This document shows, piece after piece, positions 1-61,882 of a stretch of 64,000 nucleotides of DNA (its first letter is position 1; the number at the start of each line of letters is the position of its first letter). Where the stretch lies: NCBI GenBank assembly GCA_951406725.2, contig OX597829.1, forward strand, positions 20,522,001-20,586,000. Reading direction: 5' to 3'. Under the pieces are notes generated by a model. The model saw only the letters and a program-made list of their open reading frames with translations. It was not told the DNA's origin and ran no database searches. The stretch comes from Octopus vulgaris. Taxonomy: Eukaryota. The position numbers were made by a program, and so were the translations under genes.

Positions 1-327
1 AGAGATTGCAATCCCAGTGGCACAATCAGTCCGAGACCTGGGTATTTACATGAGTGATGATGCAACCTTTCATGTGCATGTTGCTAAATCGGTAATGAAA
101 TCTAGGCGACTGACCGGATGGATTCTTAGAACCTTTAGAACAAGAGACCAGGAAACCATGATGGTCATCTGGAGGACACTTGTTCTAAGCCACTTTGACT
201 ATTGCTCTCAGCTATGGTCACCATCCAGTGTCAAGTTAATCACAGAACTTGAGGCGATCCAACGAAGCTACCCGAAGAAAATAGCCTCTGTGCAGCATAT
301 AAGCTACTGGGAATGACTCAAGAGAGT
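1..327 (+). mobile_element. CR1/Jockey-like LINE RT C-terminal fragment (mirror ~61456..61880)
   Basis: ORF 17..316 VRDLGI...WILRTF...LDYCSQLWSP...LEAIQR, typical post-RT LINE sequence. Confidence 0.8.
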
Positions 328-466
328 GTGGTTCTTTCCACCGTTGATTTGTTGTCTGCTAAAGGGTTTTTGGTTGTTCCAGATTCTGAGTTGTTGGTGT
401 GTCCTACTGGAAGAGTTTTGGTTATTCCAGGGTCTGGGTTGTTCGTACTGGGTGCAATGTTGGTTC

Positions 467-972
467 TGTAGTGACGCTATACAGCGGCACATGCGCGAAG
501 CCCCGGAAGAAGAACCCTTTTGCCTACGTAGCAGTTAGCCGAGGCAAGGGGATCATAGAACGTTTGACCACTAGCAGCAGTCAGCAGCGACTTGAGACAT
601 GGCTATCGAAGGTACAACACGTATATTCTCTCTGTCCGTATTTGATAGCAGTCGGCCGAAGATTTTAACCAAATTGTTGCCGACCACATCATCTTCCCTG
701 TTCCGGACGCCATCTTTGACCAGTGTCGTTTTGCATTTGAACACTTTCTTATTTTACAGCGATAAGGTTCAGCTGAGACACAACTATACCAAAGGGATGC
801 CAGATACACCAATTATCTGTTACCACATAAGAGAATAAAGTAGATATATATTATTTACGTTTGCGTCTTGTTGTTTCTGACGGGTAGAGAATCTGGATTA
901 TTAAAGCAACGGAAAGTGATTGCTTCTCGCACCCCCAAAAGGTCCAGAGAAGACACTCACAAGTTCGTAACA
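467..972 (+). mobile_element. Solo LTR of a Gypsy family related to the central element
   Basis: TGTAGTGACGCTAT...TAACA termini and 4-bp TSD GTTC (463-466, 973-976). The 3' part aligns by eye with the reverse complement of the LTR at 30158..30686. Confidence 0.85.
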
Positions 973-1164
973 GTTCCTTAGAGTGGGTTGGAAACCACAG
1001 TCATGGTTTAGAGTTAAATACTTATATGTTGGGAGGGAACTCTGAGTTTTGAACGGTTTGGGTTGGGATCTACAATCATAGTTCAGAGGTAGGTTTCTAA
1101 GTGATGGGTAGGATCTCCGATTCTGGAATGGTTCTTGTGTGCGTTGGGGTCTACATTGTCTATC

Positions 1165-2225
1165 AAACACATGATTGACAAACGGGCACACATATACACA
1201 CACCATCCTACCAAATTTCTAAAAAAACACACACTTATATTTATACCACAATGGACCCTGGGACCATTCAAAAGCAGCCCACACACAAACACATGTATAC
1301 ATATACACACACAAAGACACATACACTCACACCATATATACGCACACACACAAACACATACTCAATACCAACACACACAAAACGTATACACACACACACG
1401 CCACACAGATACACCCAACAGACATGGACACATATACACACTAATGCACACGCAACACACTAACAAACATTAACCACACACATACACACACAAACGAGCA
1501 CAGATATACACACACCATCCCACCAAAATTTAAAAAACACACATCTCTTTACACCACAATGGACCCTGGGACCAATCAAAAACAGCCTCCCCCTCACACA
1601 CACAAACACATGTATACACATATATACACACACACTCACACCATATATACGCACACACACAAACACATACGCAATACCAACAAATACAAAACGTATATAC
1701 ACACACACACGCCACACAGATACACCCAACTGACATGGACACACATACGAACAAACACATACACACTAATGCACACACAACACACTAGCAAACATTAACC
1801 ACACATATACACACACACAAACGGGCACACATATACACACACCATCGAACCAAATTTTTAAAAACACATCTATTTACACCACAGTGGACCCTGGGACCAA
1901 TCAAAAACAGCCCCCCCCATACACACACACACAAACACATGTATACATATATATACACACACACAAAGGCACACACACACTCACACCATTCTGACCTCCA
2001 TACAGACACACATATACACAGGCAGCACCATGCCAAATGCCAATCACACACATACATACATATACACACACACACACAACACCAAGACAATCACACACAC
2101 GATTGACAAATGGGCACACATATACACACACCATCCTACCAGATTTTATAAACACACAGACACATCTATCCACATATTTATATACACACACACAAAGACA
2201 CACATACTCAAACCATCCTGACCTC
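1165..2225. repeat. Tandem array of ~300-bp CA-rich units, about 3.5 copies (mirror ~59555..60615)
   Basis: Recurring blocks cacatatacacacaccatc..accaaattt and ggaccctgggacca at ~1253, ~1561, ~1886. Confidence 0.8.
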
Positions 2226-2397
2226 TAAAGCCAATCCCCCAAATTATTGATGCTTGAAGGTTCTACATTACTCCTCCTTCCTCCCACCCAAACACACCTA
2301 CAGTGTCCCCTGAAATAGATAATATTCTTTTAAGTTAACATGGTGGACAGGTCAGTTTTAGCTTCCATACTATTATAATGTAAACTTTTTCGAACTC

Positions 2398-2800
2398 ATA
2401 ATATTCTGTGCTTGTATACCAATATTCCACTGAACTTTTTAATAATTCCTTCTGGAAATTATCTTGAAAATGTATAATATATTTGTTGTAATCTTTTGTG
2501 CCTAATATTTCAATGAACTTGTTAAACATTTTTATGTTCTTAACAAGCTCTTGTCACCAAAGAATGTATATATATGTATTGTAGTACTCTGTGTCAACCA
2601 ATATTCTGTGCGTGTTTGAATATACAAATACAATACCAATATCCTACTGAACTTTTTAATAATTCCTTCCGGAAACTATCCTTAACATGTTCCTGAGAAT
2701 GATTATTTATGTTGTAATCTTTTGTGCCCAATATTTTTGGGAACTTGTTCAAATTTTTATGTCCTTAACATGTCCTTGTTACCAAAGACTGTATATATGT
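2398..2800. repeat. Diverged tandem duplication of a ~200-bp probable TE fragment
   Basis: ccaatat..actgaactttttaataattcctt..gttgtaatcttttgtgcc..accaaaga occurs twice (~2420 and ~2636). Confidence 0.65.
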
Positions 2801-2934
2801 AATGTAGCATTTTGTAACAACCAATAATTAACGCAACCAAACTTCTACATGTTACTTTTGACAACTTTTTCCAAAGAGTGAAACCGGTAAAGTAAATAAA
2901 CATCTTTTAAAATTGCATTTCCAAACCTTCTTTC

Positions 2935-3021
<87 letters not shown>

Positions 3022-3149
3022 CGTTTAAATATTTGTTGTGCAAGATTTTTTATGTGAAGTCGTGCGTTGAAACAGATATTGTTGTATTTAGGAATGGTCA
3101 TTTTGCCAGTTTAGCCAATAAAAACACATGCACTATATATTTTTTTTTT

Positions 3150-3362
3150 GTACTTGTTTCAGTCATTTGACTGCGGCCATGCTGGAGCACCGCCTTTAGA
3201 GTGGTGAAAGAGTACAGCAGGGATCACCACCTCCTGCCGGAGCCTCGTGGAGCTTTTAGGTGTTTTTTTCGCTCAATAAACACACACAACGCCCGGTCTG
3301 GGAATCGAAACCGCGATCCTCCGACCGCAAGTCCGCTGCCTTAACCACTAGGCCATTGCGCC
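3150..3362 (-). mobile_element. tRNA-derived SINE (mirror ~58410..58620)
   Basis: Head ggcgcaatggcctagtggtta (A box)...ggtttcgattccc (B box); tail gctccagcatggccgcagtcaaatgactgaaacaagta shared with other SINE copies here. Confidence 0.75.
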
Positions 3363-3433
3363 ATCAGTGGTCCTTTGTTCTCTTCTTACTTATTTGTGTC
3401 TCTCCTTACACAAATAAGTAAGAAGAAAACAAA

Positions 3434-3478
3434 GGACCACTGATGCGGTCACATGAGTATGACGAAAGAACTCTGGCC
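3434..3478 (+). ncRNA. Degenerate type I hammerhead-ribozyme-like motif (mirror 58294..58338)
   Basis: ggacca-CTGATGC-g-gtca(catgagta)tgac-GAAA-g(aa)c-TC-tggcc; core A9 is replaced by C. Confidence 0.5.
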
Positions 3479-3590
3479 GAAATAAGATTAAGATTAATGT
3501 AAAAAATAAATAACACTGAAGCAAAGTAACACCAAATATATAGTGCGTGTGTTTTTATTGGCTAAACTGGCAAAATGACCATTCCTAAAT

Positions 3591-3631
<41 letters not shown>

Positions 3632-3636
3632 TATAC

Positions 3637-3689
<53 letters not shown>

Positions 3690-4845
3690 TATATATTATA
3701 TATATATATATAAATATTTATATATTTATTTATATATATATAAATATTTATATATATACTAGCATTATATATGTGTATATATATGTGTACATCTATATAT
3801 ATATACATCTACACATAAAATATAAAATACAAAGTTATATCTTGATATCGCTAGTGATAACAATACTCAAAATGTATAACAGACTGGAATTGTAATCCTG
3901 CCTCTTGTAATTTGATGAATTGTATCTTGTCCTCCCTCTTGTATAGAAGTGTGGTTACAATCCAGCCTACCTCTACTTCTGGGGTGGCATTTAAAATTTT
4001 TATCCGGGACGTCCTACATCCCAGATATAAAGGTAAAAATAAAATATTTCCACTTTCCAAGGTTCGACTCGAGTACTCCCTTGCACGCTCTGTTGACTTG
4101 AACCTTGCTTCTATTGTGGCAAATTTACTGCCTCTGGTTAGATACTTGATATCTTTCAGACTCGCACCAAGACACTTTTCGATGGTGCTTTCCTTCAGGT
4201 TTTCAAATCTTTTTTTTTCTCTACATTGTGTACTTTATAGACAATAGTCTTTTCTTTAATTTAATGGACTACTCCATTTCTGCGCACTAATTATATTTTT
4301 AATTTATTCCCATTCATGTCAAACCACTTATTCAAGTTCAAGTCATTGATGCAATTTTATACCAATTGCTATTTTTACTTTTGTTATGTTACGGTTATAT
4401 TATACTTTCGTTTGATTTTAATTATTACTTACTACATATAACTCAATTGTTACTATAATCTCTAATTTTTATTGTTAAAGTGAAAGTATCAGACATAAAA
4501 TAGAGAAATGTTTTTGTTTCACTTTTAACATGTAATACTGAAACAGTGGAGAAGATATGATATTGCTATGGGCTCGCCCTAGGCAAGTTGAACATTTTTT
4601 TGCTCATGAAACTACATGGATCCTAAGTAAGGCATGTGTAAAATTTGAATGAAATTGGTTGTGTAGTTCTCAAGTTTTAGGCAAACACACAGACAGACAG
4701 ATAGACACACATTCTCAGTTTTATATAGAGAGAGATACAACTATAAATATTCATATATATAAATATAAATATTTATATATATATAAAAATATAAATATTT
4801 ATATATATATAAATATAAATATTTATGTATATATATAAATATAAA

Positions 4846-4910
<65 letters not shown>

Positions 4911-4934
4911 ATGTATATATATATATCATTTTAG

Positions 4935-6739
4935 TTGCAAGGAAATCGTTTATTAAGTTTGATAATAAGTTGTGGATCCGTAAAGATACTCCCAATGAAT
5001 TTGATGTGCCTATGGGTAGTTCGGATAGTGCGCAGATAGCCGATTTGGTCGGAATATATATTCTCTACGAATTGTCCGACCAATTCCCGGAGATCGCAGG
5101 CGGCCTGTATCGTGACGATTGTCTGTTTTACCTGCAAAACACCACGAACAGAATAGTGCAGAAAACTAAGAGCAGGTTAGCTAGGTTTTTTAATAGAATG
5201 GGCATGAGTATAGTTTTTGATAATGAACTCACCAAGGCTAATTTCCTAGACGTTACGCTTAACCTTAATAGCGACTCATACTGCCCTTACCATAAGCCTT
5301 CCACTAATTTGAAGTATGTCAGTGTCTTCTCAAATCATGCCAAAACCGTAACAGACAATTTGGTTAAAAACATCTCTCTAAGATTGTCTGGCTTGTCCGC
5401 CAGTGCCGATATTTTTATGCAGAAAGCGGAATTTTATAACGCCGCACTATCCAAGGCCGGTTATAGGCAGAAGGTAGTTTATATTGATCCGGCCCTTCCG
5501 ATGCCATCATTCGGTCATCAGGATAGGGCCGTCTATAATAACATAATCAATTTAAGTAAGGACGGGAGCGCGGCGGATGCCGGGGCAGTCGCTCCCGCAT
5601 TTAATTTAGTGAACAAGGATAAATATCGGTCCGGGAGATCTTACACTAACCCAAGACCCGTTATTCATCCGAGATTCACCCACCCGAATGCGAGAGCTGG
5701 CGTCCCGACCCATCACACAGATAGGAATAAGCATATATGGTTTGTAATTCCCTTTGGTAAGCAGATTAGAACTCACCTCCCCCTCATGTTTAGACAAGCC
5801 ATCGCCAATAACTTCCCCAGAAATTCCAAATATTACTCCATGGTTAACTCGCATAAAGTTAGGATAGCTTTCTCCAACACTAAAAACCTCGCCCAGATAA
5901 TCGCCTCCCATAATAATAGGCTACTTACTAAGACCCTATCACCTTTTTCCGGAGGCTCAGCCTCTTCCGCTCCCGGTTTAATGCTCAGTAGGAATAATTA
6001 TAGTAGTAATAATGATATGAGAGCCAGTACAGTGACACATAATCTCAGCTCCAGCCAGGGAGTACCCACTAGGGGTATAGTTATAAATAGGGGTGTTGTG
6101 GTTGACGGTAACAATGGGAGTAGGGTAGAGAGCCCCAATAGCATCCCCAGCATCATTTCCCGCAATAGCAGCACCACGGGCACTAGCAATGACAGCACTC
6201 TGATAGATAGTGGAGAATCAGGGGTTATTCCTATAGTTAATAGTGACGTAGTGGAAAATAGAGTAGTAAGCGGCTGCAGTTCTCGGAACGAATATAGTGA
6301 CAGGAACGCAGTTCTAATTTCAGAAACTAATCCTAGCAGAATAAGATTCACGTCGGCGAACTCCAAGATCAAAAACGCCGTCTACCAATGCAAGGTTTAC
6401 ACGGACTCAGATGTCTTCACTTATGTAGGGGCCTCATCGTCAAGATTGGCTTTGCGAGTCTCCAACCATTACGCAACTTTTCGGGACATGAACAAGCGCC
6501 AGACCACGGGACTCAGCAAGCTAATATGGCGACTGAAGGATACGAACTCAAGCTACAGGCTGGAATGGTCAATTTTGTCGGTGGCCCTCCCATTTGATAG
6601 GGGCAGAAGGCAGTGCAACCTTTGTGTCTCCGAACTCTTCCATATTTTGTTTGCCAGAGGCTGGATGGTAAACGGACTTTTACAGTCGGCTTTTCGATGC
6701 CCCCATTGGCGGCGTTACACTTATCTGGCTTTTAAATAG
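4935..6739 (+). mobile_element. Penelope-like element 1: RT C-terminal half + GIY-YIG endonuclease, uninterrupted ~600 codons
   Basis: [39 protein letters not shown], then AVYQC..YVG..R..NH..LSKLIW.LK..W.I..CNLC..E..C.H. Confidence 0.9.
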
Positions 6740-7303
6740 CGTTTATAAATAATACCGGCACCCATAGCCCTTGGTAACAAATTCTGAAGTAGCCTTTAAG
6801 ATATTTACGATTAACCACTGCAAGGGGAATTACTCCTGTAAGATAAACGGGGCTTGGTTTTTTGACAACACACACACATAAAACATAATATATATTTTTT
6901 TCTGCCACCCAACGGTTCTTACTGCAGTAGCCATTGTGGAGAGCGGCTTAGCCACTGACAGCCGAGCGATCAAACGCACACACGTACACAAAAAATGTTT
7001 TCTACCCCTACGCCAGCACACACATATATAGAACAGTATACACACACATGTCTCTAAGAAGATTTTTTCTCGCCCCTTATAAAACATCCAATATTCCTTA
7101 AATAGTCAGAACTTTATTCTCGGTCACAAAGAACATCTACACACCCTCACCCACATGATTGACTGCTGCCTGACCCGTTAAAATCTTCAGCCACCGGTTC
7201 TCAACATACACTGATAAACAGTTTTGCCATGGGCTCTTAGGAGCCTAGTTCGATTTGTTTTGCTCCGCCTCTGTTCTGTTTTTGTTTTTTCCAACGGATT
7301 TCC

Positions 7304-7396
7304 TATTTCTTCCTGAAGAGAAAGACACAATATGGTCTCATTATTCAATCGGATTTTGGTAAATTGTGCCTTTCGAAACACGTGTAGAATGAAATA
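7304..7396 (+). ncRNA. Type I hammerhead ribozyme downstream of Penelope element 1
   Basis: Stem I tatttcttc/gaa(t)gaaata; CTGAAGA; long stem II gaaagacacaat/attgtgcctttc; GAAA; palindromic stem III cacgtg; GUA cleavage triplet. Confidence 0.8.
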
Positions 7397-7604
7397 AAAC
7401 GATTTCTGTTCAATCTTCGTTCAGCTCCATTTCTTCAATTCACCAATAATATTTTAATTTCAATTATCCGCACCAACGCACGGTTGCAACACCATATGGT
7501 TGTACCTCCAACCGTGCTGTTTTCTGCTGTGATTTTTGCTACCAAGGTATCGGTTAAACTTTTGATTAATCTACTACAAGATTATTCATCTTTCTATTTC
7601 ACAT

Positions 7605-7672
<68 letters not shown>

Positions 7673-7934
7673 TTCACATATATATATATATAAATGTTTA
7701 CATATATATAAATATTTATATAATATATATATATAATGCGTATATATGTATATAAACATTTATATATGGCACCTTGGCAAGTGTCTGCTATTGCCTCTGG
7801 CTAACTATAGCCTTGTGAGTGGATTTGGTAGACGGAAACTAAAACAGCCCCGTCGTATATATGTATATATTTATGTATGTGTGTGTATATGTTTGTGTGT
7901 CTGTGTTTGTCCTGCCAACATTGCTTGACAACCG

Positions 7935-8545
7935 ATGGTGACTGGTCCTGAAGCGCAATGGCATTGCTGGGATCTTTGGCACTATGCAGTGTTGACCTGT
8001 TCTGGCATTACTGTAGCTTTCAATGTCAAAATTTGGCACAATTCCTTTCAGGATCTTCCAGATGTATATTACTGCATACCTCTCCCACCTTCGCTCCAGA
8101 GAGTAGAGTCTTAGCTGTTTCAGCCTTTCCCAGTAGCTTAGCAGTTGCAAAGAGATGATCTTGTTTGTGAATCTTCGTTGGATTGCTTCAAGGTCCGCTG
8201 TGAATTTGACTCTGTTGGGTGACCATAGCTATAAGCAGTAATCCAGGTGGCTGAGGACGAATGTCCGCCAGAGGACCATCATGGTTTCCTTATCTCTGGT
8301 TCTGAATGTTCTCAGGATCCATGCAGCCAGTCGCCTGCACTTTGTCGACATCCTGGTAATGTGCACTTGGAAAGAGGTATCATCACTCATGTTGATACCC
8401 AGGTCCGTCACTGATTTAGGCCCTGGGATTGAAATTCCCTGTGGGCCAGTGAACCCTGTAAGTTTCATATTGAGTTTTGGATGCCGGTAGCGCAGGGCTT
8501 GGAATATTTCAGCATTAAATTGCATACTATTATCCTCAGCCCATC
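7935..8545 (-). mobile_element. CR1/Jockey-like LINE 3' RT fragment (mirror ~53248..53853)
   Basis: ORFs 8229..8525 and 7839..8150: MQFNAE..DLGI..WILRTF..LDYC, YWERLKQLRLYSLERR. Confidence 0.85.
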
Positions 8546-8759
8546 AGTAAAATAACAGTGACAAACGAAAAATACACCACCAATAGTTGTTGCTGACAAA
8601 CAATGGCAGTAATTTTATTCAGCTGAATGCACATCATTGATTGGTTGAAATTACCGAAATACAACAACTTTAAAACGAAATAACTTCTTAAATATAAATT
8701 TTTCTCAAAAACGCTAACAGTAAAAGATATTTTATATGACACATTCTACCAGTATACGA

Positions 8760-9176
8760 AGTTTGAAAGTGTTTAGTTACAAAAAATTATTTTCTAAATC
8801 TGCCGGTCAGAAGGTAAAGATGCATTGCTTCCTTAGTATGTAACTCTTCCTTAGTACGTAACTTACACTTTCTGGTATGCGTCTTATATGGAGTGGTTTC
8901 CATTATAATAGACCAGTTTAAGTTGTTATTTCGTGTTTTTAGTTCATTAATGTATGTAGCGAGTGCCATTGAATTTTTTGTTCCTGGATTTGAGAATGAG
9001 CTGATATGCCCCCTATATCTTGTCTTAAAATCGGTTGTGCTCCTTATGTATACCTTGTTTGGTTCATTAATAGTTCCAGAAATTACAAACTTTATTCTGC
9101 TCCCTTACATTTATATGTTTATTATCTGTGTTCATTATTATTATTATTATTATCATTATTATTATTATTATTATCA

Positions 9177-9213
<37 letters not shown>

Positions 9214-10131
9214 ATTAAGACTATCTGTATTCCCATTATTCTTAAGCTTAAATTTATTATTCCCTGTGATTTTCGATCCTAGATTTGGCGTAGATGAATA
9301 TGATAGTTTGAGACAGGATCTATTAAAAATGGGGTGGTATTTATGGTCCACAGCAAAGTTCTTGTAAATAACACAAACAAATAATTTAGGGAGGTTTTTG
9401 GCCTGAGGGAGAAAGGTGGGGGTTAAACCAGATAACTTCCCATTTTCTCGCTGTTTTATTTCCAGTTTGCCAATGCCTATTATTGTAACAAGAACAGTTA
9501 GAATAAATTAGATATCTTCTAAAGTGAGAGGCATCCTGTTGTTCAGAAGGGTTGTTTATGGACAGGGTATCAATGGAAAGAGCTTACCTGATTTGTATTT
9601 GAATAGTGTATTCTTGATATAATATATATTTTACATGAATTCACTATTCTTTAAGGCTGTGTTATAAATAGGCGTCACATTATAGAAAATCTCTTGGTTT
9701 GATGATAGGTTGGAAATTCTAATTGACATTCCCTTGATGACTCCATTAATAATACTTTGGGGATGGTTTGACAATGCATGGTTAAATTTATTTGGCTTGT
9801 AGGGATAAAATAGCCCATTATCTAAGTTTAGTATTACATCTAAGAAGTTAATAATTCTAGTGGTATTTTCAAACATAATCTCTAAATTATCTACTTTAAA
9901 AAATTTGATTAATTTTTTTCTTAATTCTATCTATTGTTTCTAGTGAAGAGCCAGATATAGCAAGTAAGGCATCGTCCCTGTATAGACCTCCACCGATATT
10001 TGGGAACTCATCCCTAATTTTCGAAAGTAGAAATAGGCCCACTATATCAATGATCTGGGTAGAGTCAGAAGAAACCATTGTAACATCGAAGTTGTCGTGA
10101 ATGTTACTATGGGTTCAAAGCCTGTTTTTAA
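8760..10131 (-). mobile_element. Penelope-like element 2, degenerate, with (AAT)n expansion (mirror ~51652..53030)
   Basis: FDVTMVSSDSTQIIDIVG, GGLYRDD, NFLDVILNL, HKYHPIFNRSCLKLSYS, LATYINELK..NWSII..CKL across broken frames. Confidence 0.8.
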
Positions 10132-10484
10132 TATATATATATATTCTTTTATATAGGGCAGGGTGCAAAATTAGATGGCAACTGGGATAAAATGAGTAAA
10201 TTTTGATTTCTCCTTATTTTCTCCCTACCTGTTTAAAGTCACTACATTGCAATTATTGCATCGTGTTTAGGAGTAAACATTTGTTAGCATAGTTGTTGAA
10301 GTTGAGAGAGTCTGAAACATAGTCAGGTGACAAGTACTTTTCGTCAAGAAATTTTTCCTCAACTTAAGAGAGCCACTCCAGCAGATTATGAAGAAGCTAT
10401 AGAGAATATTTTATGTTGAGATTGTTTTTTTATTCAAGTTTCATTAATTTCATAACATGTGCCATTTTTCCATGATCCTTTCTC

Positions 10485-10647
10485 TCTTTTACTCTTTTAC
10501 TTGTTTCAGTCATTTGACTGCAGCCATGCTGGAGCACCGCTTTTAGTCGAGCCCAGTACTGATTTTATCGGTCTCTTTTGCCGAACTGCTAAGTGACGGG
10601 GACGTAAACACACCAGCATCGGTTGTCAAGCAATGCCAGGGAGACAA

Positions 10648-10680
<33 letters not shown>

Positions 10681-10850
10681 CATATATACAACAGGCTTCT
10701 TTCAGTTTCTGTCTACCAAACCCACTCACAAGGCATTGGTCGGCCCGGGGCTATAGCTGAAGACACTTGCCCAAGATGCCACGCAGTGGGACTGGACCCA
10801 GAACTATGTGGTTGGTTAGCAAGCTACATACCTCACAGCCACTCCTGCAC
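10485..10850 (-). mobile_element. tRNA-derived SINE with internal (CA)/(TA) microsatellite (mirror ~50942..51312)
   Basis: Same head (ggagtggctgtg.ggta..agcttgct..ccaaccacat) and tail (aaatgactgaaacaagtaaaagag) as the copy at 14077. Confidence 0.7.
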
Positions 10851-11999: not shown

Positions 12000-12510
12000 T
12001 TTTAAAAGGTGAAGAAGTCACTGCAAGATGTGTCATGAAATTTTTACTATATATGATTAACCTCATAGAATAACCTTCAATACTATTGTTCCTTTCCTTT
12101 GTCCACTGAATTTACATCAGTGAAAAACTCAACTTGTGTTTGCATTTTGGGTTGCTACAGCAAGGAAAAGTTGTGCAATTCTGAACATCTCTGAGCAGCA
12201 TTCAATATTTGATTTTTCAAAATATTTGGTCCATTTTTTATGTACTAGCAATTTACTGAATTTCTCATCACTCTTGTAATTTTGTAAAACCTACTTCAAG
12301 TTACTAACTCTTCATGTCATTAAACCTCTACTGCTTATCTACCAAATATTTGACACAAAACTCCAATTAAGTATCTTGCTCAAGGTCATCCACTTGAATC
12401 CCGAAAACACTTGCGTTGGTTTCACCCACTTATCCAATGAATACACTGAACATCTGTTGTAGAAAGTAACTACTTCAGCTCAAAATTTTTTACATTCTTC
12501 TTTATATCAT
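12000..12510 (-). mobile_element. hAT-type transposase C-terminal (dimerisation domain) relic (mirror ~49280..49790)
   Basis: Manual translation gives SEMFRIAQLFLAVATQNANTS*VFSLM*IQWTKERN, resembling the hAT PxSNAxxERxFSxM..W...RN motif. Confidence 0.6.
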
Positions 12511-13046: not shown

Positions 13047-13081
13047 GTTTCTGATGAAGAGCTCCACTTGAAACGTTAAAT
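13047..13081 (+). ncRNA. Minimal type I hammerhead-like motif within a short Penelope-associated repeat (mirror 48710..48744)
   Basis: gttt-CTGATGA-a-gag(ctcca)ctt-GAAA-cg-TT-aaat; palindromic aacgtt stem III typical of dimerising minimal HHRs. Confidence 0.55.

Positions 13082-14033: not shown

Positions 14034-14035
<2 letters not shown>
13690..14035 (-). mobile_element. RTE/BovB-like LINE 3' fragment (mirror ~47757..48100)
   Basis: LAEDRTAWKTSVNEGVKQLEE..FCNRTCSSHIGRISYERSC C-terminal zinc-finger-like tail. Confidence 0.6.
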
Positions 14036-50700: not shown

Positions 50701-51111
50701 GCTAAGCAAATGATCTTCGCTAAATGCATTAAAAACAAATATAAGATAATCTGAACACTATTTCAGAAAATTATCACCATTCTCTTTGAGTAAATAAAAG
50801 AAAACTTTAGCTGGGGAAAAATTAGTAAGCCAAAATAAAGTAAATTTGCTGCTTCAATTCTTAGGAATTACATTTGAAAAAGACTCATCACATCAATATC
50901 CATCCTTAAAAGGATCAGAAATGTAACAGAAATTAAAAATGGTGCAGGAGTGGCTGTGAGGTATGTAGCTTGCTAACCAACCACATAGTTCTGGGTTCAG
51001 TCCCACTGCGTGGCATCTTGGGCAAGTGTCTTCTGCTATAGCCCCGGGCCGACCAATGCCTTGTGAGTGGGTTTGGTAGACAGAAACTGAAAGAAGCCTG
51101 TTGTATATATG

Positions 51112-51148
<37 letters not shown>

Positions 51149-52570
51149 TTGTCTCCCTGGCATTGCTTGACAACCGATGCTGGTGTGTTTACGTCCCCGT
51201 CACTTAGCGGTTCGGCAAAAGAGACCGATAAAATCAGTACTGGGCTCGACTAAAAGCGGTGCTCCAGCATGGCTGCAGTCAAATGACTGAAACAAGTAAA
51301 AGAGTAAAAGAGAGAAAGGATCATGGAAAAATGGCACATGTTATGAAATTAATGAAACTTGAATAAAAAAACAATCTCAACATAAAATATTCTCTATAGC
51401 TTCTTCATAATCTGCTGGAGTGGCTCTCTTAAGTTGAGGAAAAATTTCTTGACGAAAAGTACTTGTCACCTGACTATGTTTCAGACTCTCTCAACTTCAA
51501 CAACTATGCTAACAAATGTTTACTCCTAAACACGATGCAATAATTGCAATGTAGTGACTTTAAACAGGTAGGAGAAATCAAAATTTACTCATTTTATCCC
51601 AGTTGCCATCTAATTTTGCACCCTGCCCTATATAAAAGAATATATATATATATTAAAAACAGGCTTTGAACCCATAGTAACATTCACGACAACTTCGATG
51701 TTACAATGGTTTCTTCTGACTCTACCCAGATCATTGATATAGTGGGCCTATTTCTACTTTCGAAAATTAGGGATGAGTTCCCAAATATCAGTGGAGGTCT
51801 ATACAGGGACGATGCCTTACTTGCTATATCTGGCTCTTCACTAGAAACAATAGATAGAATTAAGAAAAAAATTAATCAAATTTTTTAAAGTAGATAATTT
51901 AGAGATTATGTTTGAAAATACCACTAGAATTATTAACTTCTTAGATGTAATACTAAACTTAGATAATGGGCTATTTTATCCCTACAAGCCAAATAAATTT
52001 AACCATGCATTGTCAAACCATCCCCAAAGTATTATTAATGGAGTCATCAAAGGAATGTCAATTAGAATTTCCAACCTATCATCAAACCAAGAGATTTTCT
52101 ATAATGTGACGCCTATTTATAACACAGCCTTAAAGAATAGTGAATTCATGTAAAATATATATTATATCAAGAATACACTATTCAAATACAAATCAGGTAA
52201 GCTCTTTCCATTGATACCCTGTCCATAAACAACCCTTCTGAACAACAGGATGCCTCTCACTTTAGAAGATATCCAATTTATTCTAACTGTTCTTGTTACA
52301 ATAATAAGCATTGGCAAACTGGAAATAAAACAGCGAGAAAATGGGAAGTTATCTGGTTTAACCCCCACCTTTCTCCCTCAGGCCAAAAACCTCCCTAAAT
52401 TATTTGTTTGTGTTATTTACAAGAACTTTGCTGTGGACCATAAATACCACCCCATTTTTAATAGATCCTGTCTCAAACTATCATATTCATCTACGCCAAA
52501 TCTAGGATCGAAAATCACAGGGAATAATAAATTTAAGCTTAAGAATAATGGGAATACAGATAGTCTTAAT

Positions 52571-52619
<49 letters not shown>

Positions 52620-54128
52620 TAATAATAATAATAATAATGATAATAATAATAATAATAATGAACACAGATAATAAACATATAAATGTAAGGGAGCAGAATA
52701 AAGCTTGTAATTTCTGGAACTATTAATGAACCAAACAAGGTATACATAAGGAGCACAACCGATTTTAAGACAAGATATAGGGGACATATCAGCTCATTCT
52801 CAAATCCAGGAACAAAAAATTCAATGGCACTCGCTACATACATTAATGAACTAAAAACACGAAATAACAACTTAAACTGGTCTATTATAATGGAAACCAC
52901 TCCATATAAGACGCATACCAGAAAGTGTAAGTTACGTACTAAGGAAGAGTTACATACTAAGGAAGCAATGCATCTTTACCTTCTGACCGGCAGATTTAGA
53001 AAATAATTTTTTGTAACTAAACACTTTCAAACTTCGTATACTGGTAGAATGTGTCATATAAAATATCTTTTACTGTTAGCGTTTTTGAGAAAAATTTATA
53101 TTTAAGAAGTTATTTCGTTTTAAAGTTGTTGTATTTCGGTAATTTCAACCAATCAATGATGTGCATTCAGCTGAATAAAATTACTGCCATTGTTTGTCAG
53201 CAACAACTATTGGTGGTGTATTTTTCGTTTGTCACTGTTATTTTACTGATGGGCTGAGGATAATAGTATGCAATTTAATGCTGAAATATTCCAAGCCCTG
53301 CGCTACCGGCATCCAAAACTCAATATGAAACTTACAGGGTTCACTGGCCCACAGGGAATTTCAAACCCAGGGCCTAAATCAGTGACGGACCTGGGTATCA
53401 ACATTAGTGATGATACCTCTTTCCAAGTGCACATTACCAGGATGTCGACAAAGTGCAGGCGACTGGCTGCATGGATCCTGAGAACATTCAGAACCAGAGA
53501 TAAGGAAACCATGATGGTCCTCTGGCGGTCATTCGTCCTCAGCCACCTGGATTACTGCTCATAGCTATGGTCACCCAACAGAGTGGAATTCACAGCGGAC
53601 CTTGAAGCAATCCAACGAAGATTCACAAACAAGATCATCTCTTTGCAGCTGCTAAGCTACTGGGAAAGGCTGAAACAGCTAAGACTCTACTCTCTGGAGC
53701 GAAGGTGGGAGAGGTATGCAGTAATATACATCTGGAAGATCCTGAAAGGAATTGTGCCAAATTTTGACATTGAAAGCTACAGTAATGCCAGAACAGGTCA
53801 ACACTGCATAGTGCCAAAGATCCCAGCAATGCCATTGCGCATCAGGACCAGTTACCATCGGTTGTCAAGCAATGTTGGCAGGACAAACACAGACACACAA
53901 ACATATACACACACATACATAAATATATACATATATACGACGGGGCTGTTTTAGTTTCCGTCTACCAAATCCACTCACAAGGCTATAGTTAGCCAGAGGC
54001 AATAGCAGACACTTGCCAAGGTGCCATATATAAATGTTTATATACATATATACGCATTATATATATATATTATATAAATATTTATATATATGTAAACATT
54101 TATATATATATATATATATATGTGTGAA

Positions 54129-54198
<70 letters not shown>

Positions 54199-54404
54199 GT
54201 GAAATAGAAAGATGAATAATCTTGTAGTAGATTAATCAAAAGTTTAACCGATACCTTGGTAGCAAAAATCACAGCAGAAAACAGCACGGTTGGAGGTACA
54301 ACCATATGGTGTTGCAACCGTGCGTTGGTGCGGATAATTGAAATTAAAATATTATTGGTGAATTGAAGAAATGGAGCTGAACGAAGATTGAACAGAAATC
54401 GTTT

Positions 54405-54497
54405 TATTTCATTCTACACGTGTTTCGAAAGGCACAATTTACCAAAATCTGATTGAATAATGAGACCATATTGTGTCTTTCTCTTCAGGAAGAAATA
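54405..54497 (-). ncRNA. Type I hammerhead ribozyme, right-arm copy
   Basis: Mirror of 7304..7396 with core and stems conserved. Confidence 0.8.
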
Positions 54498-55099
54498 GGA
54501 AATCCGTTGGAAAAAACAAAAACAGAACAGAGGCGGAGCAAAACAAATCGAACTAGGCTCCTAAGAGCCCATGGCAAAACTGTTTATCAGTGTATGTTGA
54601 GAACCGGTGGCTGAAGATTTTAACGGGTCAGGCAGCGGTCAATCATGTGGATGAGGGTGTGTAGATGTTCTTTGTGACCGAGAATAAAGTTCTGACTATT
54701 TAAGGAATATTGGATGTTTTATAAGGGGCGAGAAAAAATCTACTTAGAGACATGTGTGTGTATACTGTTCTATATATGTGTGTGCTGGCGTAGGGGTAGA
54801 AAACATTTGTTTGTGTACGTGTGTGCGTTTGATCGCTCGGCTGTCAGTGGCTAAGCCGCTCTCCACAATGGCTACTGCAGTAAGAACCGTTGGGTGGCAG
54901 AAAAAAATATATATTATGTTTTATGTGTGTGTGTGTTCGTCTGAGCCTGCCTTGTCAAGGTAACCCCCCTATGTCAAAAAACCAAGCCCCGTTTATCTTA
55001 CAGGAGTAATTCCCCTTGCAGTGGTTAATCGTAAATATCTTAAAGGCTATTTCAGAATTTGTTACCAAGGGCTATGGGTGTCGGTATTATTTATAAACG

Positions 55100-56904
55100 C
55101 TATTTAAAAGCCAGATAAGTGTAACGCCGCCAATGGGGGCATCGAAAAGCCGACTGTAAAAGTCCGTTTACCATCCGGCCTCTGGCAAACAAAATATGGA
55201 AGAGTTCGGAGACACAAAGGTTGCACTGCCTTCTGCCCCTATCAAATGGGAGGGCCACCGACAAAATTGACCATTCCAGCCTGTAGCTTGAGTTCGTATC
55301 CTTCAGTCGCCATATTAGCTTGCTGAGTCCCGTGGTCTGGCGCTTGTTCATGTCCCGAAAAGTTGCGTAATGGTTGGAGACTCGCAAAGCCAATCTTGAC
55401 GATGAGGCCCCTACATAAGTGAAGACATCTGAGTCCGTGTAAACCTTGCATTGGTAGACGGCGTTTTTGATCTTGGAGTTCGCCGACGTGAATCTTATTC
55501 TGCTAGGATTAGTTTCTGAAATTAGAACTGCGTTCCTGTCACTATATTCGTTCCGAGAACTGCAGCCGCTTACTACTCTATTTTCCACTACGTCACTATT
55601 AACTATAGGAATAACCCCTGATTCTCCACTATCTATCAGAGTGCTGTCATTGCTAGTGCCCGTGGTGCTGCTATTGCGGGAAATGATGCTGGGGATGCTA
55701 TTGGGGCTCTCTACCCTACTCCCATTGTTACCGTCAACCACAACACCCCTATTTATAACTATACCCCTAGTGGGTACTCCCTGGCTGGAGCTGAGATTAT
55801 GTGTCACTGTACTGGCTCTCATATCATTATTACTACTATAATTATTCCTACTGAGCATTAAACCGGGAGCGGAAGAGGCTGAGCCTCCGGAAAAAGGTGA
55901 TAGGGTCTTAGTAAGTAGCCTATTATTATGGGAGGCGATTATCTGGGCGAGGTTTTTAGTGTTGGAGAAAGCTATCCTAACTTTATGCGAGTTAACCGCG
56001 GAGTAATATTTGGAATTTCTGGGGAAGTTATTGGCGATGGCTTGTCTAAACATGAGGGGGAGGTTAGTTCTAATCTGCTTACCAAAGGGAATTACAAACC
56101 ATATATGCTTATTCCTATCTGTGTGATGGGTCGGGACGCCAGCTCTCGCATTCGGGTGGGTGATTCTCGGATGAATAACGGGTCTTGGGTTAGTGTAAGA
56201 TCTCCCGGACCGATAATTATCCTTGTTCACTAAATTAAATGCGGGAGCGACTGCCCCGGCATCCGCCGCGCTCCCGTCCTTACTTAAATTGATTATGTTA
56301 TTATAGACGGCCCTATCCTGATGACCGAATGATGGCATCGGAAGGGCCGGATCAATATAAATTACCTTCTGCCTATAACCGGCCTTGGATAGTGCGGCGT
56401 TATAAAATTCCGCTTTCTGCATAAAAATATCGGCACTGGCGGACAAGCCAGACAATCTTAGAGAGATGTTTTTAACCAAATTGTCTGTTACGGTTTTGGC
56501 ATGATTTGAGAAGACACTGACATACTTCAAATTAGTGGAAGGCTTATGGTAAGGGCAGTATGAGTCGCTATTAAGGTTAAGCGTAACGTCTAGGAAATTA
56601 GCCTTGGTGAGTTCATTATCAAAAACTATACTCATGCCCATTCTATTAAAAAACCTAGCTAACCTGCTCTTAGTTTTCTGCACTATTCTGTTCGTGGTGT
56701 TTTGCAGGTAAAACAGACAATCGTCACGATACAGGCCGCCCGCGATCTCCGGGAATTGGTCGGACAATTCGTAGAGAATATATATTCCGACCAAATCGGC
56801 TATCTGCGCACTATCCGAACTACCCATAGGCACATCAAATTCATTGGGAGTATCTTTACGGATCCACAACTTATTATCAAACTTAATAAACGATTTCCTG
56901 GCAA
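55100..56904 (-). mobile_element. Penelope-like element 1, right-arm copy (also open)
   Basis: ORF 55100..57004 is nearly identical to 4907..6739. Confidence 0.9.
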
Positions 56905-56946
56905 CTAAAATGATATATATATATATATATACACACACATATATAC

Positions 56947-56983
<37 letters not shown>

Positions 56984-58112
56984 TTTATATTTATATATAT
57001 ACATAAATATTTATATTTATATATATATAAATATTTATATTTTTATATATATATAAATATTTATATTTATATATATGAATATTTATAGTTATATCTCTCT
57101 ATATATAAAACTGAGAATGTGTGTCTATCTGTCTGTCTGTGTGTTTGCCTAAAACTTGAGAACTACACAACCAATTTCATTCAAATTTTACACATGCCTT
57201 ACTTAGGATCCATGTAGTTTCATGAGCAAAAAAATGTTCAACTTGCCTAGGGCGAGCCCATAGCAATATCATATCTTCTCCACTGTTTCAGTATTACATG
57301 TTAAAAGTGAAACAAAAACATTTCTCTATTTTATGTCTGATACTTTCACTTTAACAATAAAAATTAGAGATTATAGTAACAATTGAGTTATATGTAGTAA
57401 GTAATAATTAAAATCAAACGAAAGTATAATATAACCGTAACATAACAAAAGTAAAAATAGCAATTCGTATAAAATTGCATCAATGACTTGAACTTGAATA
57501 AGTGGTTTGACATGAATGGGAATAAATTAAAAATATAATTAGTGCGCAGAAATGGAGTAGTCCATTAAATTAAAGAAAAGACTATTGTCTATAAAGTACA
57601 CAATGTAGAGAAAAAAAAAGATTTGAACACCTGAAGGAAAGCACCATCGAAAAGTGTCTTGGTGCGAGTATGAAAGATATCAAGTATCTAACCAGAGGCA
57701 GTAAATTTGCCACAATAGAAGCAAGGTTCAAGTCAACAGAGCGTGCAAGGGAGTACTCGAGTCGAACCTTGGAAAGTGGAAATATTTTATTTTTACCTTT
57801 ATATCTGGGATGTAGGACGTCCCGGATAAAAATTTTAAATGCCACCCCAGAAGTAGAGGTAGGCTGGATTGTAACCACACTTCTATACAAGAGGGAGGAC
57901 AAGATACAATTCATCAAATTACAAGAGGCAGGATTACAATTCCAATCTGTTATACATTTTGAGTATTGTTATCACTAGCGATATCAAGATATAACTTTGT
58001 ATTTTATATTTTATGTGTAGATGTATATATATATAGATGTACACATATATATACACATATATAATGCTAGTATATATATAAATATTTATATATATATAAA
58101 TAAATATATAAA

Positions 58113-58175
<63 letters not shown>

Positions 58176-58750
58176 TGTTGTATTTAGGAATGGTAATTTT
58201 GCCAGTTTAGCCAATAAAAACACACGCACTATATATTTGGTGTTACTTTGCTTCAGTGTTATTTATTTTTTACATTAATCTTAATCTTATTTCGGCCAGA
58301 GTTCTTTCGTCATACTCATGTGACCGCATCAGTGGTCCTTTGTTTTCTTCTTACTTATTTGTGTAAGGAGAGACACAAATAAGTAAGAAGAAAACAAAGG
58401 ACCACTGATGGCGCAATGGCCTAGTGGTTAGGGCAGCGGACTTGCGGTCGGAGGATCGCGGTTTCGATTCCCAGACCGGACGTTGTGTGTGTTTATTGAG
58501 CGAAAAAAACACCTAAAAGCTCCACGAGGCTCCGGCAGGAGGTGGTGATACCTGCTGTACTCTTTCACCACTCTAAAGGCGGTGCTCCAGCATGGCCGCA
58601 GTCAAATGACTGAAACAAGTACAAAAAAAAAATATATAGTGCATGTGTTTTTATTGGCTAAACTGGCAAAATGACCATTCCTAAATACAACAATATCTGT
58701 TTCAACGCACGACTTCACATAAAAAATCTTGCACAACAAATATTTAAACG

Positions 58751-58843
<93 letters not shown>

Positions 58844-60810
58844 GAAAGAAGGTTTGGAAATGCAATTTTAAAAGATGTTTATTTACTTTACCGGTTTCAC
58901 TCTTTGGAAAAAGATTGTCAAAAGTAACATGTAGAAGTTTGGTTGCGTTAATTATTGGTTGTTACAAAATGCTACATTACATATATACAGTCTTTGGTAA
59001 CAAGGACATGTTAAGGACATAAAAATTTGAACAAGTTCCCAAAAATATTGGGCACAAAAGATTACAACATAAATAATCATTCTCAGGAACATGTGAAGGA
59101 TAGTTTCCGGAAGGAATTATTAAAAAGTTCAGTAGGATATTGGTATTGTATTTGTATATTCAAACACGCACAGAATATTGGTTGACACAGAGTACTACAA
59201 TACATATATATACATTCTTTGGTGACAAGAGCTTGTTAAGAACATAAAAATGTTTAACAAGTTCATTGAAATATTAGGCACAAAAGATTACAACAAATAT
59301 ATTATACATTTTCAAGATAATTTCCAGAAGGAATTATTAAAAAGTTCAGTGGAATATTGGTATACAAGCACAGAATATTATGAGTTCGAAAAAGTTTACA
59401 TTATAATAGTATGGAAGCTAAAACTGACCTGTCCACCATGTTAACTTAAAAGAATATTATCTATTTCAGGGGACACTGTAGGTGTGTTTGGGTGGGGGGA
59501 AGGAGGAGTAATGTGGAACCTTCAAGCATCAATGATTTGGGGGATTGGCTTTAGAGGTCAGGATGGTTTGAGTATGTGTGTCTTTGTGTGTGTGTATATA
59601 CATATGTGGATAGATGTGTCTGTGTGTTTATAAAATCTGGTAGGATGGTGTGTGTATATGTGTGCCCATTTGTCAATCGTGTGTGATTGTCTTGGTGTTG
59701 TGTGTGTGTGTGTATATGTATGTATGTGTGTGATTGGCATTTGGCATGGTGCTGCCTGTGTATATGTGTGTCTGTATGGAGGTCAGAATGGTGTGAGTGT
59801 GTGTGTGCCTTTGTGTGTGTGTATATATATGTATACATGTGTTTGTGTGTGTGTGTATGGGGGGGCTGTTTTTGATTGGTCCCAGGGTCCACTGTGGTGT
59901 AAATAGATGTGTTTTTAAAAATTTGGTACGATGGTGTGTGTATATGTGTGCCCGTTTGTGTGTGTGTGTGTGTGTATGTATGGTTAATGTTTGCTAGTGT
60001 GTTGTGTGTGCATTAGTGTGTATGTGTTTGTTCGTATGTGTGTCCATGTCAGTTGGGTGTATCTGTGTGGCGTGTGTGTGTGTATATACGTTTTGTATTT
60101 GTTGGTATTGCGTATGTGTTTGTGTGTGTGCGTATATATGGTGTGAGTGTGTGTGTATATATGTGTATACATGTGTTTGTGTGTGTGAGGGGGGAGGCTG
60201 TTTTTGATTGGTCCCAGGGTCCATTGTGGTGTAAAGAGATGTGTGTTTTTTAAAATTTGGTGGGATGGTGTGTGTATATCTGTGCTCGTTTGTGTGTGTA
60301 TGTGTGTGGTTAATGTTTGTTAGTGTGTTGCGTGTGCATTAGTGTGTATATGTGTCCATGTCTGTTGGGTGTATCTGTGTGGCGTGTGTGTGTGTATACG
60401 TTTTGTGTGTGTTGGTATTGAGTATGTGTTTGTGTGTGTGCGTATATATGGTGTGAGTGTATGTGTCTTTGTGTGTGTATATGTATACATGTGTTTGTGT
60501 GTGGGCTGCTTTTGAATGGTCCCAGGGTCCATTGTGGTATAAATATATGTGTGTGTTTTTTTAGAAATTTGGTAGGATGGTGTGTGTATATGTGTGCCCG
60601 TTTGTCAATCATGTGTTTGATAGACAATGTAGACCCCAACCCACACAAGAACCGTTCCAGAATCGGAGATCCTACCCATCACTTAGAAACCTACCTCTGA
60701 ACTATGATTGTAGATCCCAACCCAAACCGTTCAAAACTCAGAGTTCCCTCCCAACATATAAGTATTTAACTCTAAACCATGACTGTGGTTTCCAACCCAC
60801 TCTAAGGAAC

Positions 60811-61316
60811 TGTTACGAACTTGTGAGTGTCTTCTCTGGACCTTTTGGGGGTGCGAGAAGCAATCACTTTCCGTTGCTTTAATAATCCAGATTCTCTACC
60901 CGTCAGAAACAACAAGACGCAAACGTAAATAATATATATCTACTTTATTCTCTTATGTGGTAACAGATAATTGGTGTATCTGGCATCCCTTTGGTATAGT
61001 TGTGTCTCAGCTGAACCTTATCGCTGTAAAATGAGAAAGTGTTCAAATGCAAAACGACACTGGTCAAAGATGGCGTCCGGAACAGGGAAGATGATGTGGT
61101 CGGCAACAATTTGGTTAAAATCTTCGGCCGACTGCTATCAAATACGGACAGAGAGAATATACGTGTTGTACCTTCGATAGCCATGTCTCAAGTCGCTGCT
61201 GACTGCTGCTAGTGGTCAAACGTTCTACGATCCCCTTGCCTCGGCTAACTGCTACGTAGGCAAAAGGGTTCTTCTTCCGGGGCTTCGCGCATGTGCCGCT
61301 GTATAGCGTCACTACA
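60811..61316 (-). mobile_element. Solo LTR, right-arm copy
   Basis: Mirror of 467..972 with GAAC flanks on both sides. Confidence 0.85.
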
Positions 61317-61882
61317 GAACCAACATTGCACCCAGTACGAACAACCCAGACCCTGGAATAACCAAAACTCTTCCAGTAGGACACACCAACAACTCAGAAT
61401 CTGGAACAACCAAAAACCCTTTAGCAGACAACAAATCAACGGTGGAAAGAACCACACTCTCTTGAGTCATTCCCAGTAGCTTATATGCTGCACAGAGGCT
61501 ATTTTCTTCGGGTAGCTTCGTTGGATCGCCTCAAGTTCTGTGATTAACTTGACACTGGATGGTGACCATAGCTGAGAGCAATAGTCAAAGTGGCTTAGAA
61601 CAAGTGTCCTCCAGATGACCATCATGGTTTCCTGGTCTCTTGTTCTAAAGGTTCTTAGAATCCATCCGGTCAGTCGCCTAGATTTCATTGCCGATTTAGC
61701 AACATGCACATGAAAGGTTGCATTATCACTCATGTAAATACCCAGGTCTCGGACTGATTGTGCCACTGGGATTGCAATCCCTCCAGGTCCAGTGTATTTA
61801 TTGGGTATTGCATATAGTTTTGCATGCTGATAGCATAAAGCTTGAAACTTTTCAGCATTGAACTGCATGCTATTCTTTTCAG

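What the first reader, a model, noticed from the sequence alone, without database searches (positions are those of the whole stretch)
1..61782. At least 62-kb palindrome with ~26-kb arms and an all-transposon 9.6-kb spacer
Seen: colinear mirror symmetry of every TE, SINE and microsatellite. Arm-specific events: fold-back insertion at 24898, MITE at 47454, ~190 bp at 17807..17999 missing on the right, ~49-bp tandem duplication at 20580..20670, and small right-only inserts at ~42325 and ~54936. Identity looks highest in the outer arms and lower near the centre and in the gene. Inference: an ampliconic palindrome maintained by arm-to-arm gene conversion, analogous to sex-chromosome palindromes. 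The alternative is two haplotypes assembled back-to-back.
Basis: partly seen in the sequence, partly recalled or inferred. Interest (0 to 1): 0.7.

Follow-up and report, generated by a model that had tools for sequence, protein, structure and literature searches.

The report
Octopus palindrome shielding diverged glycosyltransferase copies
In an octopus genome, a 26-kb stretch is duplicated back-to-front and kept about 99.5% identical, except for the business end of a sugar-transferring enzyme gene, whose two copies split long ago and differ sharply, a pattern like the human red/green opsin genes.

Summary
The palindrome is in the sequence: arms 1-26445 and 36022-61782, 292 substitutions in 25,246 columns, a 9,576-bp spacer, no Ns. 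The window is from an Octopus. Each arm holds one PF03407 (GT77-like, GT-A fold) glycosyltransferase gene, and these carry the real signal. Arm divergence falls into four blocks: 0.53%, 9.46% (613 bp of the catalytic domain), 0.50%, and 2.54% next to the spacer. The left gene (two stops) groups with one O. vulgaris protein; the intact right gene groups with a second O. vulgaris protein and an O. sinensis one (15 of 15 informative sites; AU p=0.0003). So the two gene lineages predate those species' split, yet their flanks are nearly identical. Best reading: an old inverted duplication re-homogenised by arm-to-arm copying, in long episodes rather than steadily, with a divergence peak where the right copy evolved fast (dN/dS about 3, strongly more basic). 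Back-to-back haplotypes is unlikely but needs reads to exclude. The spacer also holds a third copy of arm sequence. Z-linkage is untested. New member of a known kind.

The parts
1..26445 (+). Left arm (continues off the left edge of the window)
36022..61782 (-). Right arm, inverted copy of the left arm
26446..36021 (.). Spacer, 9,576 bp, wholly repeat-derived, with several rearrangement junctions
18113..19141 (+). Left glycosyltransferase CDS (PF03407), single coding exon, ancestral type, broken by in-frame stops at codons 177 and 273
42483..43511 (-). Right glycosyltransferase CDS, intact 342 aa, N-terminal hydrophobic anchor, GT-A fold, derived type
18509..19121 (+). Divergence peak, left side (58 substitutions in 613 columns, 9.46%; codons 133-337)
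42503..43115 (-). Divergence peak, right side
23254..26445 (.). Older inner block of the left arm (2.54% from right arm 36022-38407), mostly a non-LTR retrotransposon (RTE-like; clade name recalled, Pfam gives RVT_1 only)
24898..25674 (.). Left-only 777-bp fold-back made of two inverted pieces of an LTR related to the spacer Gypsy LTR; 5 extra bases by length (imperfect target duplication)
26446..26461 (+). Arm-spacer junction with a short templated copy of adjacent arm sequence (repair-junction signature, inferred)
26462..29300 (+). 5'-truncated LINE with endonuclease and RT (CR1-like; clade name recalled)
29301..30157 (+). Third copy of arm sequence (equals left 22994-23866); about equally distant from both arms
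30158..35640 (-). Young Gypsy-type LTR retrotransposon (RT, RNase H, integrase); LTRs 30158-30686 and 34770-35297 (526 of 528 identical) plus a duplicated 343-bp internal 3' end at 35298-35640
35641..36021 (+). Extra 5' part of the right-arm retrotransposon, absent from the left arm
17808..17995 (.). 188 bp present only in the left arm, 65 bp upstream of the putative splice acceptor of the gene
47454..47685 (.). Right-only fold-back MITE in a TA run
20580..20671 (.). Left-only 49-bp tandem duplication
42326..42368 (.). Right-only 43-bp insert
54935..54971 (.). Right-only 37-bp insert

Best explanation
A real inverted segmental duplication in an Octopus genome, built around a tail-to-tail pair of PF03407/GT77-like glycosyltransferase genes. 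Shown: the two gene lineages are older than the O. vulgaris / O. sinensis split; the arms are 0.5% apart on both sides of the gene; only the catalytic-domain exon segment (9.5%) and the 3.2 kb next to the spacer (2.5%) are older. Inferred: the duplication is at least as old as the 2.5% block; arms pair (hairpin or inter-chromatid) and copy onto each other, at least once in a tract of 14 kb or more and more patchily near the gene; tracts crossing the catalytic segment did not persist, first because selection kept two different enzymes, later because overwriting the intact right copy with the dead left copy is harmful and 9% divergence impedes copying. The right lineage changed fast and became strongly basic, most simply a change of acceptor substrate toward an anionic glycan (inferred, untested).
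For: Quartet sites with O. vulgaris P0001/P0002: 15 orthologue-type, 0 swapped, 0 concerted; same 15/0/0 with O. sinensis P0003; a left+right clade is rejected for codons 133-342, AU p=0.00026. Left vs P0001 95.3%, left vs right 87.1%. P0001 and P0002 both list a longest contig of 58,760,710 bp in an assembly collapsed with purge_dups (PMC10700109 passage), which fits linked paralogues. Four-block segmentation 0.53 / 9.46 / 0.50 / 2.54% (inner vs background p=3e-18, peak p=7e-47). 1 substitution in the 425 columns right after the peak. dS in the peak 2.1-2.8% matches the inner block; dN 11-13%. Whole CDS Nd 54.7, Sd 4.3, ratio 3.2. Codons 58-132 are identical between arms and the left copy there carries derived-type D75 and F81, while codon 43 and 133-337 are ancestral type: a mosaic. 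Private residues 19 right vs 6 left, p=0.015; 17 of 21 charge changes raise the right copy's charge, p=0.007; net +26 vs +10. Third copy in the spacer is star-like with the arms (private sites C 18, L 13, R 12 of 821). No N gap.
Against: O. vulgaris and O. sinensis flanking DNA could not be fetched, so the classic test (arms closer within species than between) is made only for the gene, not the flanks. The outer 14 kb is not overdispersed, so ongoing short-tract conversion is not shown there; one re-duplication gives the same. The left copy has two stops, so selection for two working enzymes is not what holds the peak now. dN/dS significance depends on the method (Fisher p 0.007; 0.019 with rounding up; 0.0005 with transition weighting), rests on about 4 synonymous changes, and conversion itself can strip synonymous differences. 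The concentration of changes after the DxD-type motif (37 of 166 vs 7 of 141) is not seen between the O. vulgaris pair (25 of 168 vs 15 of 141, p=0.31), and P0002 is not basic (+7), so the charge shift is particular to this lineage. Two small clusters of differences lie in repeats and may come from other repeat copies. The same-length contig does not show that P0001 and P0002 are adjacent or inverted. A 0.5% difference is within octopus heterozygosity (1.22%).
Confidence: 0.68

Rival explanations
1. Recent inverted duplication of a derived-type cassette (0.5% old), after which the left gene's catalytic segment was overwritten by ectopic conversion from an older ancestral-type paralogue or pseudogene elsewhere in a gene cluster.
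For: Outer arm uniform at 0.55%. Left N-terminal half carries derived-type residues 75 and 81. The family is multi-copy in Octopus: clusters of 4, 3 and 2 member sequences. Two stops are many for DNA only 0.5% old (4.4% of random substitutions make a stop).
Against: Needs a second patch for ancestral-type codon 43, and does not explain the 2.5% inner block, which shares an insertion site across both arms and the third copy and shows that inverted homology is older. dS in the peak equals the inner-block divergence.
Confidence: 0.16
2. False duplication: two haplotypes joined back-to-back, the gene types being ancient balanced alleles (trans-species polymorphism, as recalled for primate ABO).
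For: 0.5% background is within octopus heterozygosity (1.22% in O. vulgaris). Arm-specific insertions and microsatellite lengths could be allelic. A narrow non-synonymous peak is also expected of old balanced alleles.
Against: No N gap. The spacer has biological junctions and a third copy, so local duplication is real anyway. A mis-join would need same-family Gypsy copies in opposite orientation on each haplotype; the only near-identical repeat is 872 bp. Both gene types list the same 58.76-Mb contig length in an independent purged O. vulgaris assembly, which would need a second false duplication.
Confidence: 0.09
3. The duplication is real and about 2.5% diverged throughout, and the 0.5% background is an artefact of read correction or polishing mixing the two arms.
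For: The block anchored by the unique spacer is the one that stays at 2.5%.
Against: DNA immediately beside the 9.5% peak, where reads are best anchored, is the most identical (1 of 425 columns after it, 3 of 925 before the CDS). Arm-specific indels are as rare in the outer arms as substitutions are.
Confidence: 0.04

Closest known systems
Divergence peak in duplicated genes under gene conversion (human red/green opsin exon 5; RHD/RHCE; Teshima and Innan model, as reviewed in PMC3924837)
   Same: High, largely amino-acid-changing divergence confined to one coding stretch, flanks kept nearly identical, and the peak grouping by gene type across species.
   Different: Here the pair is inverted within a >52-kb palindrome, the peak spans about 200 codons, one copy is now a pseudogene, and homogenisation looks episodic.
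Large sex-chromosome palindromes of primates and mice (PMC8327919; bioRxiv 10.1101/800185)
   Same: Arms over 8 kb, about 99% identical, short spacer with rearrangements concentrated at the centre, a gene in each arm.
   Different: Arm identity 98.8% overall (99.35% outer) rather than up to 99.99%; the gene copies are strongly diverged, not identical; no evidence on sex linkage or testis expression.
Tigriopus GOT1p1/GOT1p2 paralogues (PMC3728101, abstract)
   Same: Invertebrate paralogues with islands of divergence despite conversion; conversion did not keep every copy functional.
   Different: The abstract mentions no large palindrome; different enzyme family.
PF03407 / CAZy GT77 transferases (plant RGXT xylosyltransferases; Dictyostelium AgtA)
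   Same: Pfam match E=2.5e-23, GT-A fold, database names of octopus relatives refer to UDP-xylose:fucose alpha-1,3-xylosyltransferase.
   Different: Mollusc clade with EVD in place of DxD; donor and acceptor unknown; no solved sequence relative.

Membership tests
Large ampliconic palindrome (criteria in PMC8327919) | Inverted arms of at least 8 kb | tested here: met
   At least 26.4 and 25.8 kb
Large ampliconic palindrome (criteria in PMC8327919) | Arm-to-arm identity of at least 99% | tested here: inconclusive
   99.35% over 1-18508, 99.0% over 1-23253, 98.84% over the whole arm, gaps excluded
Large ampliconic palindrome (criteria in PMC8327919) | Real structure on one chromosome, not an assembly duplicate | not testable with these tools
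   No reads; indirect support from no gap, junctions, third copy, O. vulgaris pair
Sex-chromosome palindrome | Location on a sex chromosome (Z = O. vulgaris chr16, O. sinensis LG20) | tested here: inconclusive
Sex-chromosome palindrome | Arms closer within species than to orthologous arms of another species | not testable with these tools
   No eukaryote genome collection; only proteins of other species were available
Divergence peak under gene conversion | Local peak of paralogue divergence with low-divergence flanks on both sides | tested here: met
   9.46% between 0.53% and 0.50%
Divergence peak under gene conversion | In the peak, orthologues of other species are closer than the paralogue | tested here: met
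   15/0/0 quartet sites; AU p=0.00026
Divergence peak under gene conversion | Excess of amino-acid changes | tested here: met
   dN/dS about 3-6, Fisher p 0.0002-0.02 by method and region
Divergence peak under gene conversion | Both copies functional with different activities | tested here: not met
   Left copy has stops at codons 177 and 273; its O. vulgaris counterpart P0001 is full length; activities not assayed
PF03407 nucleotide-diphospho-sugar transferase | Pfam score above gathering cut-off | tested here: met
   83.6 bits vs 22
PF03407 nucleotide-diphospho-sugar transferase | GT-A fold with N-terminal membrane anchor | tested here: met
   Model pLDDT 91.8; best Z 14.4, rmsd 3.8, 216 aligned to glycogenin, tied with other GT-A enzymes; hydrophobic residues about 13-31 read from the sequence
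PF03407 nucleotide-diphospho-sugar transferase | Alpha-1,3 transfer onto fucose, as the database names imply | not testable with these tools
   Names are automatic annotation

The most novel reading that the evidence does not exclude
Octopuses carry a conserved palindromic glycan-diversification locus, comparable to RH or ABO: an inverted pair of GT77-like transferases whose shared regulatory DNA is repeatedly synchronised by arm-to-arm copying while the catalytic segments are driven apart by selection (surface-glycan conflict with pathogens, or gamete or self recognition), with copies dying and being reshuffled by lineage; it might lie on the Z chromosome.
Probability: 0.2. Interest if true: 0.78.

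Novelty: new member of a known kind. Interest (0 to 1): 0.55.

Why it matters
It is a clean, cross-species-anchored case of gene divergence under gene conversion, inside a large palindrome, in a mollusc; my searches found no such report for octopus. It points to a fast-evolving octopus glycosyltransferase of unknown substrate and gives a natural pair of enzymes (ancestral O. vulgaris type vs the basic derived type) for mapping specificity. It also shows that arm identity misdates such palindromes several-fold, and that purging tools could collapse them as haplotigs.

Tried and rejected
Other host genes in the arms: 95 of 100 listed open frames of 55 aa or more from the left arm and right tail were scanned (the other 5 overlap frames scanned); 3 of 95 had Pfam hits at E<=0.01, one LINE endonuclease and two below cut-off. 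Rfam 0 and ARAGORN 0 hits. Conversion from A-to-I edited mRNA as the cause of the peak: rejected, A/G differences run both ways (11 and 12). Steady short-tract conversion over the whole arm: not supported in 1-14000, though 14001-23253 and the inner block are overdispersed. Tree of residues 34-132: unresolved. Solved-structure sequence search with the family profile: 0 hits. Search for shorter homologues: 1 hit of 86 candidates, unused. Cluster membership and accessions of the octopus proteins could not be obtained, so their positions and orientation stay unknown. Matching contig lengths to chromosome names: no hit in 2 supplementary files; supplements of the O. vulgaris genome paper were not available and may hold chromosome lengths. 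Literature searches octopus+palindrome+gene conversion (1 unrelated paper), cephalopod+nucleotide-diphospho-sugar transferase (0), octopus+glycosyltransferase+positive selection+tandem duplication (0), GT77+fucose+mollusc (1 review). The first halfA/halfB alignment of the fold-back (7.7%) was misaligned and is replaced (4.3%). The species was not identified beyond the genus.
Full report
Observation. Self-BLAST and unique 25-mer anti-diagonals show one colinear inverted repeat: 1-14069 with 61782-47722 (98.2% with gaps), 14034-17811, 17996-24896 and 25677-26445 with 36790-36022. The match reaches base 1, so the arms continue off the window. The window holds no N.

Source and gene. The only host gene found in the arms is a PF03407 nucleotide-diphospho-sugar transferase (other frames, Rfam and tRNA scans negative). 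The best of 57 homologues are from Octopus vulgaris (86% and 88%), O. sinensis (90%), O. bimaculoides and Argonauta, so the window is from an Octopus; I did not determine the species. The right copy (43511-42483) is an intact 342-aa frame; the left (18113-19141) has stops at codons 177 and 273. The genes point toward each other. The model (pLDDT 91.8) is a GT-A fold, closest to glycogenin and related retaining enzymes at Z about 14, several tied. Substrates are unknown.

Divergence along the arms. After masking 13 microsatellite intervals and 8 columns around each indel (23,417 columns kept, 224 substitutions), segmentation gave four blocks: 1-18508 0.53% (90 of 16,945), 18509-19121 9.46% (58 of 613), 19122-23253 0.50% (18 of 3,578), 23254-26445 2.54% (58 of 2,281). 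The peak is codons 133-337 of the gene. The CDS differs at 62 of 1,029 bases, with Nd 54.7 and Sd 4.3, dN/dS 3.2; Fisher p ranges from 0.0002 to 0.019 by region, rounding and transition weighting. dS in the peak (2.1-2.8%) matches the inner block. The outer 14 kb is not overdispersed (index 1.2 at 500 bp, p=0.21), whereas 14001-23253 without the CDS is (index 4.3, p=0.0005), with identical runs up to 1,297 columns and two tight clusters inside repeats.

Age of the gene pair. At 44 amino-acid differences between the arms, the left copy matches O. vulgaris P0001 at 36 and the right at 5. Quartets with P0001 and P0002 give 15 sites grouping left with P0001 and right with P0002, none swapped and none grouping left with right; the same counts hold with O. 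sinensis P0003; a left+right clade is rejected for residues 133-342 (AU p=0.00026, 8 rows). The derived clade holds proteins of both O. vulgaris and O. sinensis (support 99/97), so the split of the two types precedes that speciation, given as 2.5 mya in PMC10700109 (passage), whichever species the window is from. The left copy differs from P0001 at 16 of 340 residues, at least 1.6% of bases, three times the arm background. So the flanks are younger than the genes: they have been copied between arms since. The N-terminal half is a mosaic: codons 58-132 are identical between arms, and the left copy there carries D75 and F81, shared with P0002 and not with P0001 or O. bimaculoides (Argonauta has F81 too, so that site is weaker).

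What changed. The right copy has 19 private residues against 6 for the left among five octopus proteins (p=0.015), and 17 of 21 charge-changing differences raise its charge; residues 133-342 are net +26 against +10. E172, D174, G209 and D252, invariant or nearly so in the 57-row alignment, are kept in both. Changes flank these motifs, in parts that in GT-A enzymes shape the acceptor site (recalled, not tested). Against generality: P0002 is net +7, and the O. vulgaris pair shows no concentration after the DxD-type motif.

Spacer. It reads: short templated junction, truncated LINE (26462-29300), a third copy of arm sequence (29301-30157), a young Gypsy element with LTRs 526 of 528 identical and a duplicated internal end, then extra 5' sequence of the right-arm LINE. 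The third copy is about as far from each arm as they are from each other (private sites 18, 13, 12 in 821 columns). The Gypsy has no matching flank on its right, so the centre was rearranged after it inserted (inferred). Primate X palindromes also rearrange mostly at the centre (PMC8327919, passages).

Mechanism. Shown: geometry, block structure, cross-species grouping, amino-acid excess, two stops. Inferred: an old inverted duplication; later arm-to-arm copying, with at least one long tract; persistence of the peak through selection and then through the divergence barrier and protection of the intact copy. This is the pattern described for red/green opsins in PMC3924837 (passages) and for Tigriopus GOT1 (abstract). 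It works like those cases; it fails one feature of them now, since one copy is dead.

Artefact. A 0.5% difference lies within octopus heterozygosity (1.22%), so identity alone decides nothing. Against haplotypes: no gap, biological junctions, a third copy, and both gene types listing one 58.76-Mb contig length in a purged O. vulgaris assembly. Against consensus mixing: the best-anchored flanks are the most identical. Reads are still needed.

Sex chromosome. Z is O. vulgaris chr16 and O. sinensis LG20 (bioRxiv 2024.12.09.627507, section 5 read; PMC10925132, passages). I could not match the homologues' contigs to these; unseen supplements may settle it.

Literature seen. Passages: PMC10700109, PMC3924837, PMC8327919, PMC8724618 (GT77 AgtA; molluscs have disubstituted fucose), PMC10925132. 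One section: bioRxiv 2024.12.09.627507. Abstract: PMC3728101. Search listing only: bioRxiv 10.1101/800185. Supplement search only: PMC13508932. ABO trans-species polymorphism and the RTE, CR1 and Penelope clade names are recalled. No report of this locus or of an octopus palindrome under conversion appeared.

Verdict. Observation confirmed; interpretation partly supported; new member of a known kind; interest 0.55.

Noticed in passing
window 24898-25674: The fold-back is an inverted dimer of LTR pieces (about LTR 1-338 plus reversed 1-458) related to the spacer Gypsy LTR, with the same LTR end at both termini. Its halves differ by 13 of 303 (4.3%), no less than the 2.5% of the block it sits in, so it may have moved as a unit: a possible LTR-derived, integrase-mobilised MITE-like element.
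   Followed up: partly
window 467-972 and mirror about 60811-61316: Solo LTR of the same Gypsy family with a perfect 4-bp target duplication, present in both arms.
   Followed up: no
window 30158-35640: Gypsy element with a tandem-type structure: an extra 343-bp copy of the internal 3' end and purine tract lies outside the 5' LTR and is cut off at 35640; no matching target site.
   Followed up: partly
window 4787-6739 and 55100-57010: Long open frame in both arms, Penelope-like by recalled motifs, no Pfam hit; a very AT-rich relative lies at about 20900-23400 and 38300-40770.
   Followed up: no
window 16298-16394 and 21209-21242: Tight clusters of arm differences (9 in about 100 bp inside a tRNA-type SINE; 6 in 34 bp inside a Penelope-like RT) in otherwise near-identical DNA: remnants of old divergence or conversion from other repeat copies.
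   Followed up: partly
window 19547-19696: Five 1-bp indels in 150 bp, all with the base missing in the right arm; could be local consensus error.
   Followed up: no
window 18059-18060 and 43564-43565: Polypyrimidine tract and AG about 50 bp upstream of the start codon; the 5' untranslated exon and promoter were not located.
   Followed up: no
P0002, P0003 at residue 299: The O. vulgaris and O. sinensis derived-type proteins have His where both window copies and P0001 have Asn in the C-terminal NNNW motif, near where GT-A enzymes often have a metal-binding His (recalled).
   Followed up: no
window 61886-64000: AT microsatellite, A-rich run and degenerate ATAC/AC arrays; their mirror would lie left of the window.
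   Followed up: no
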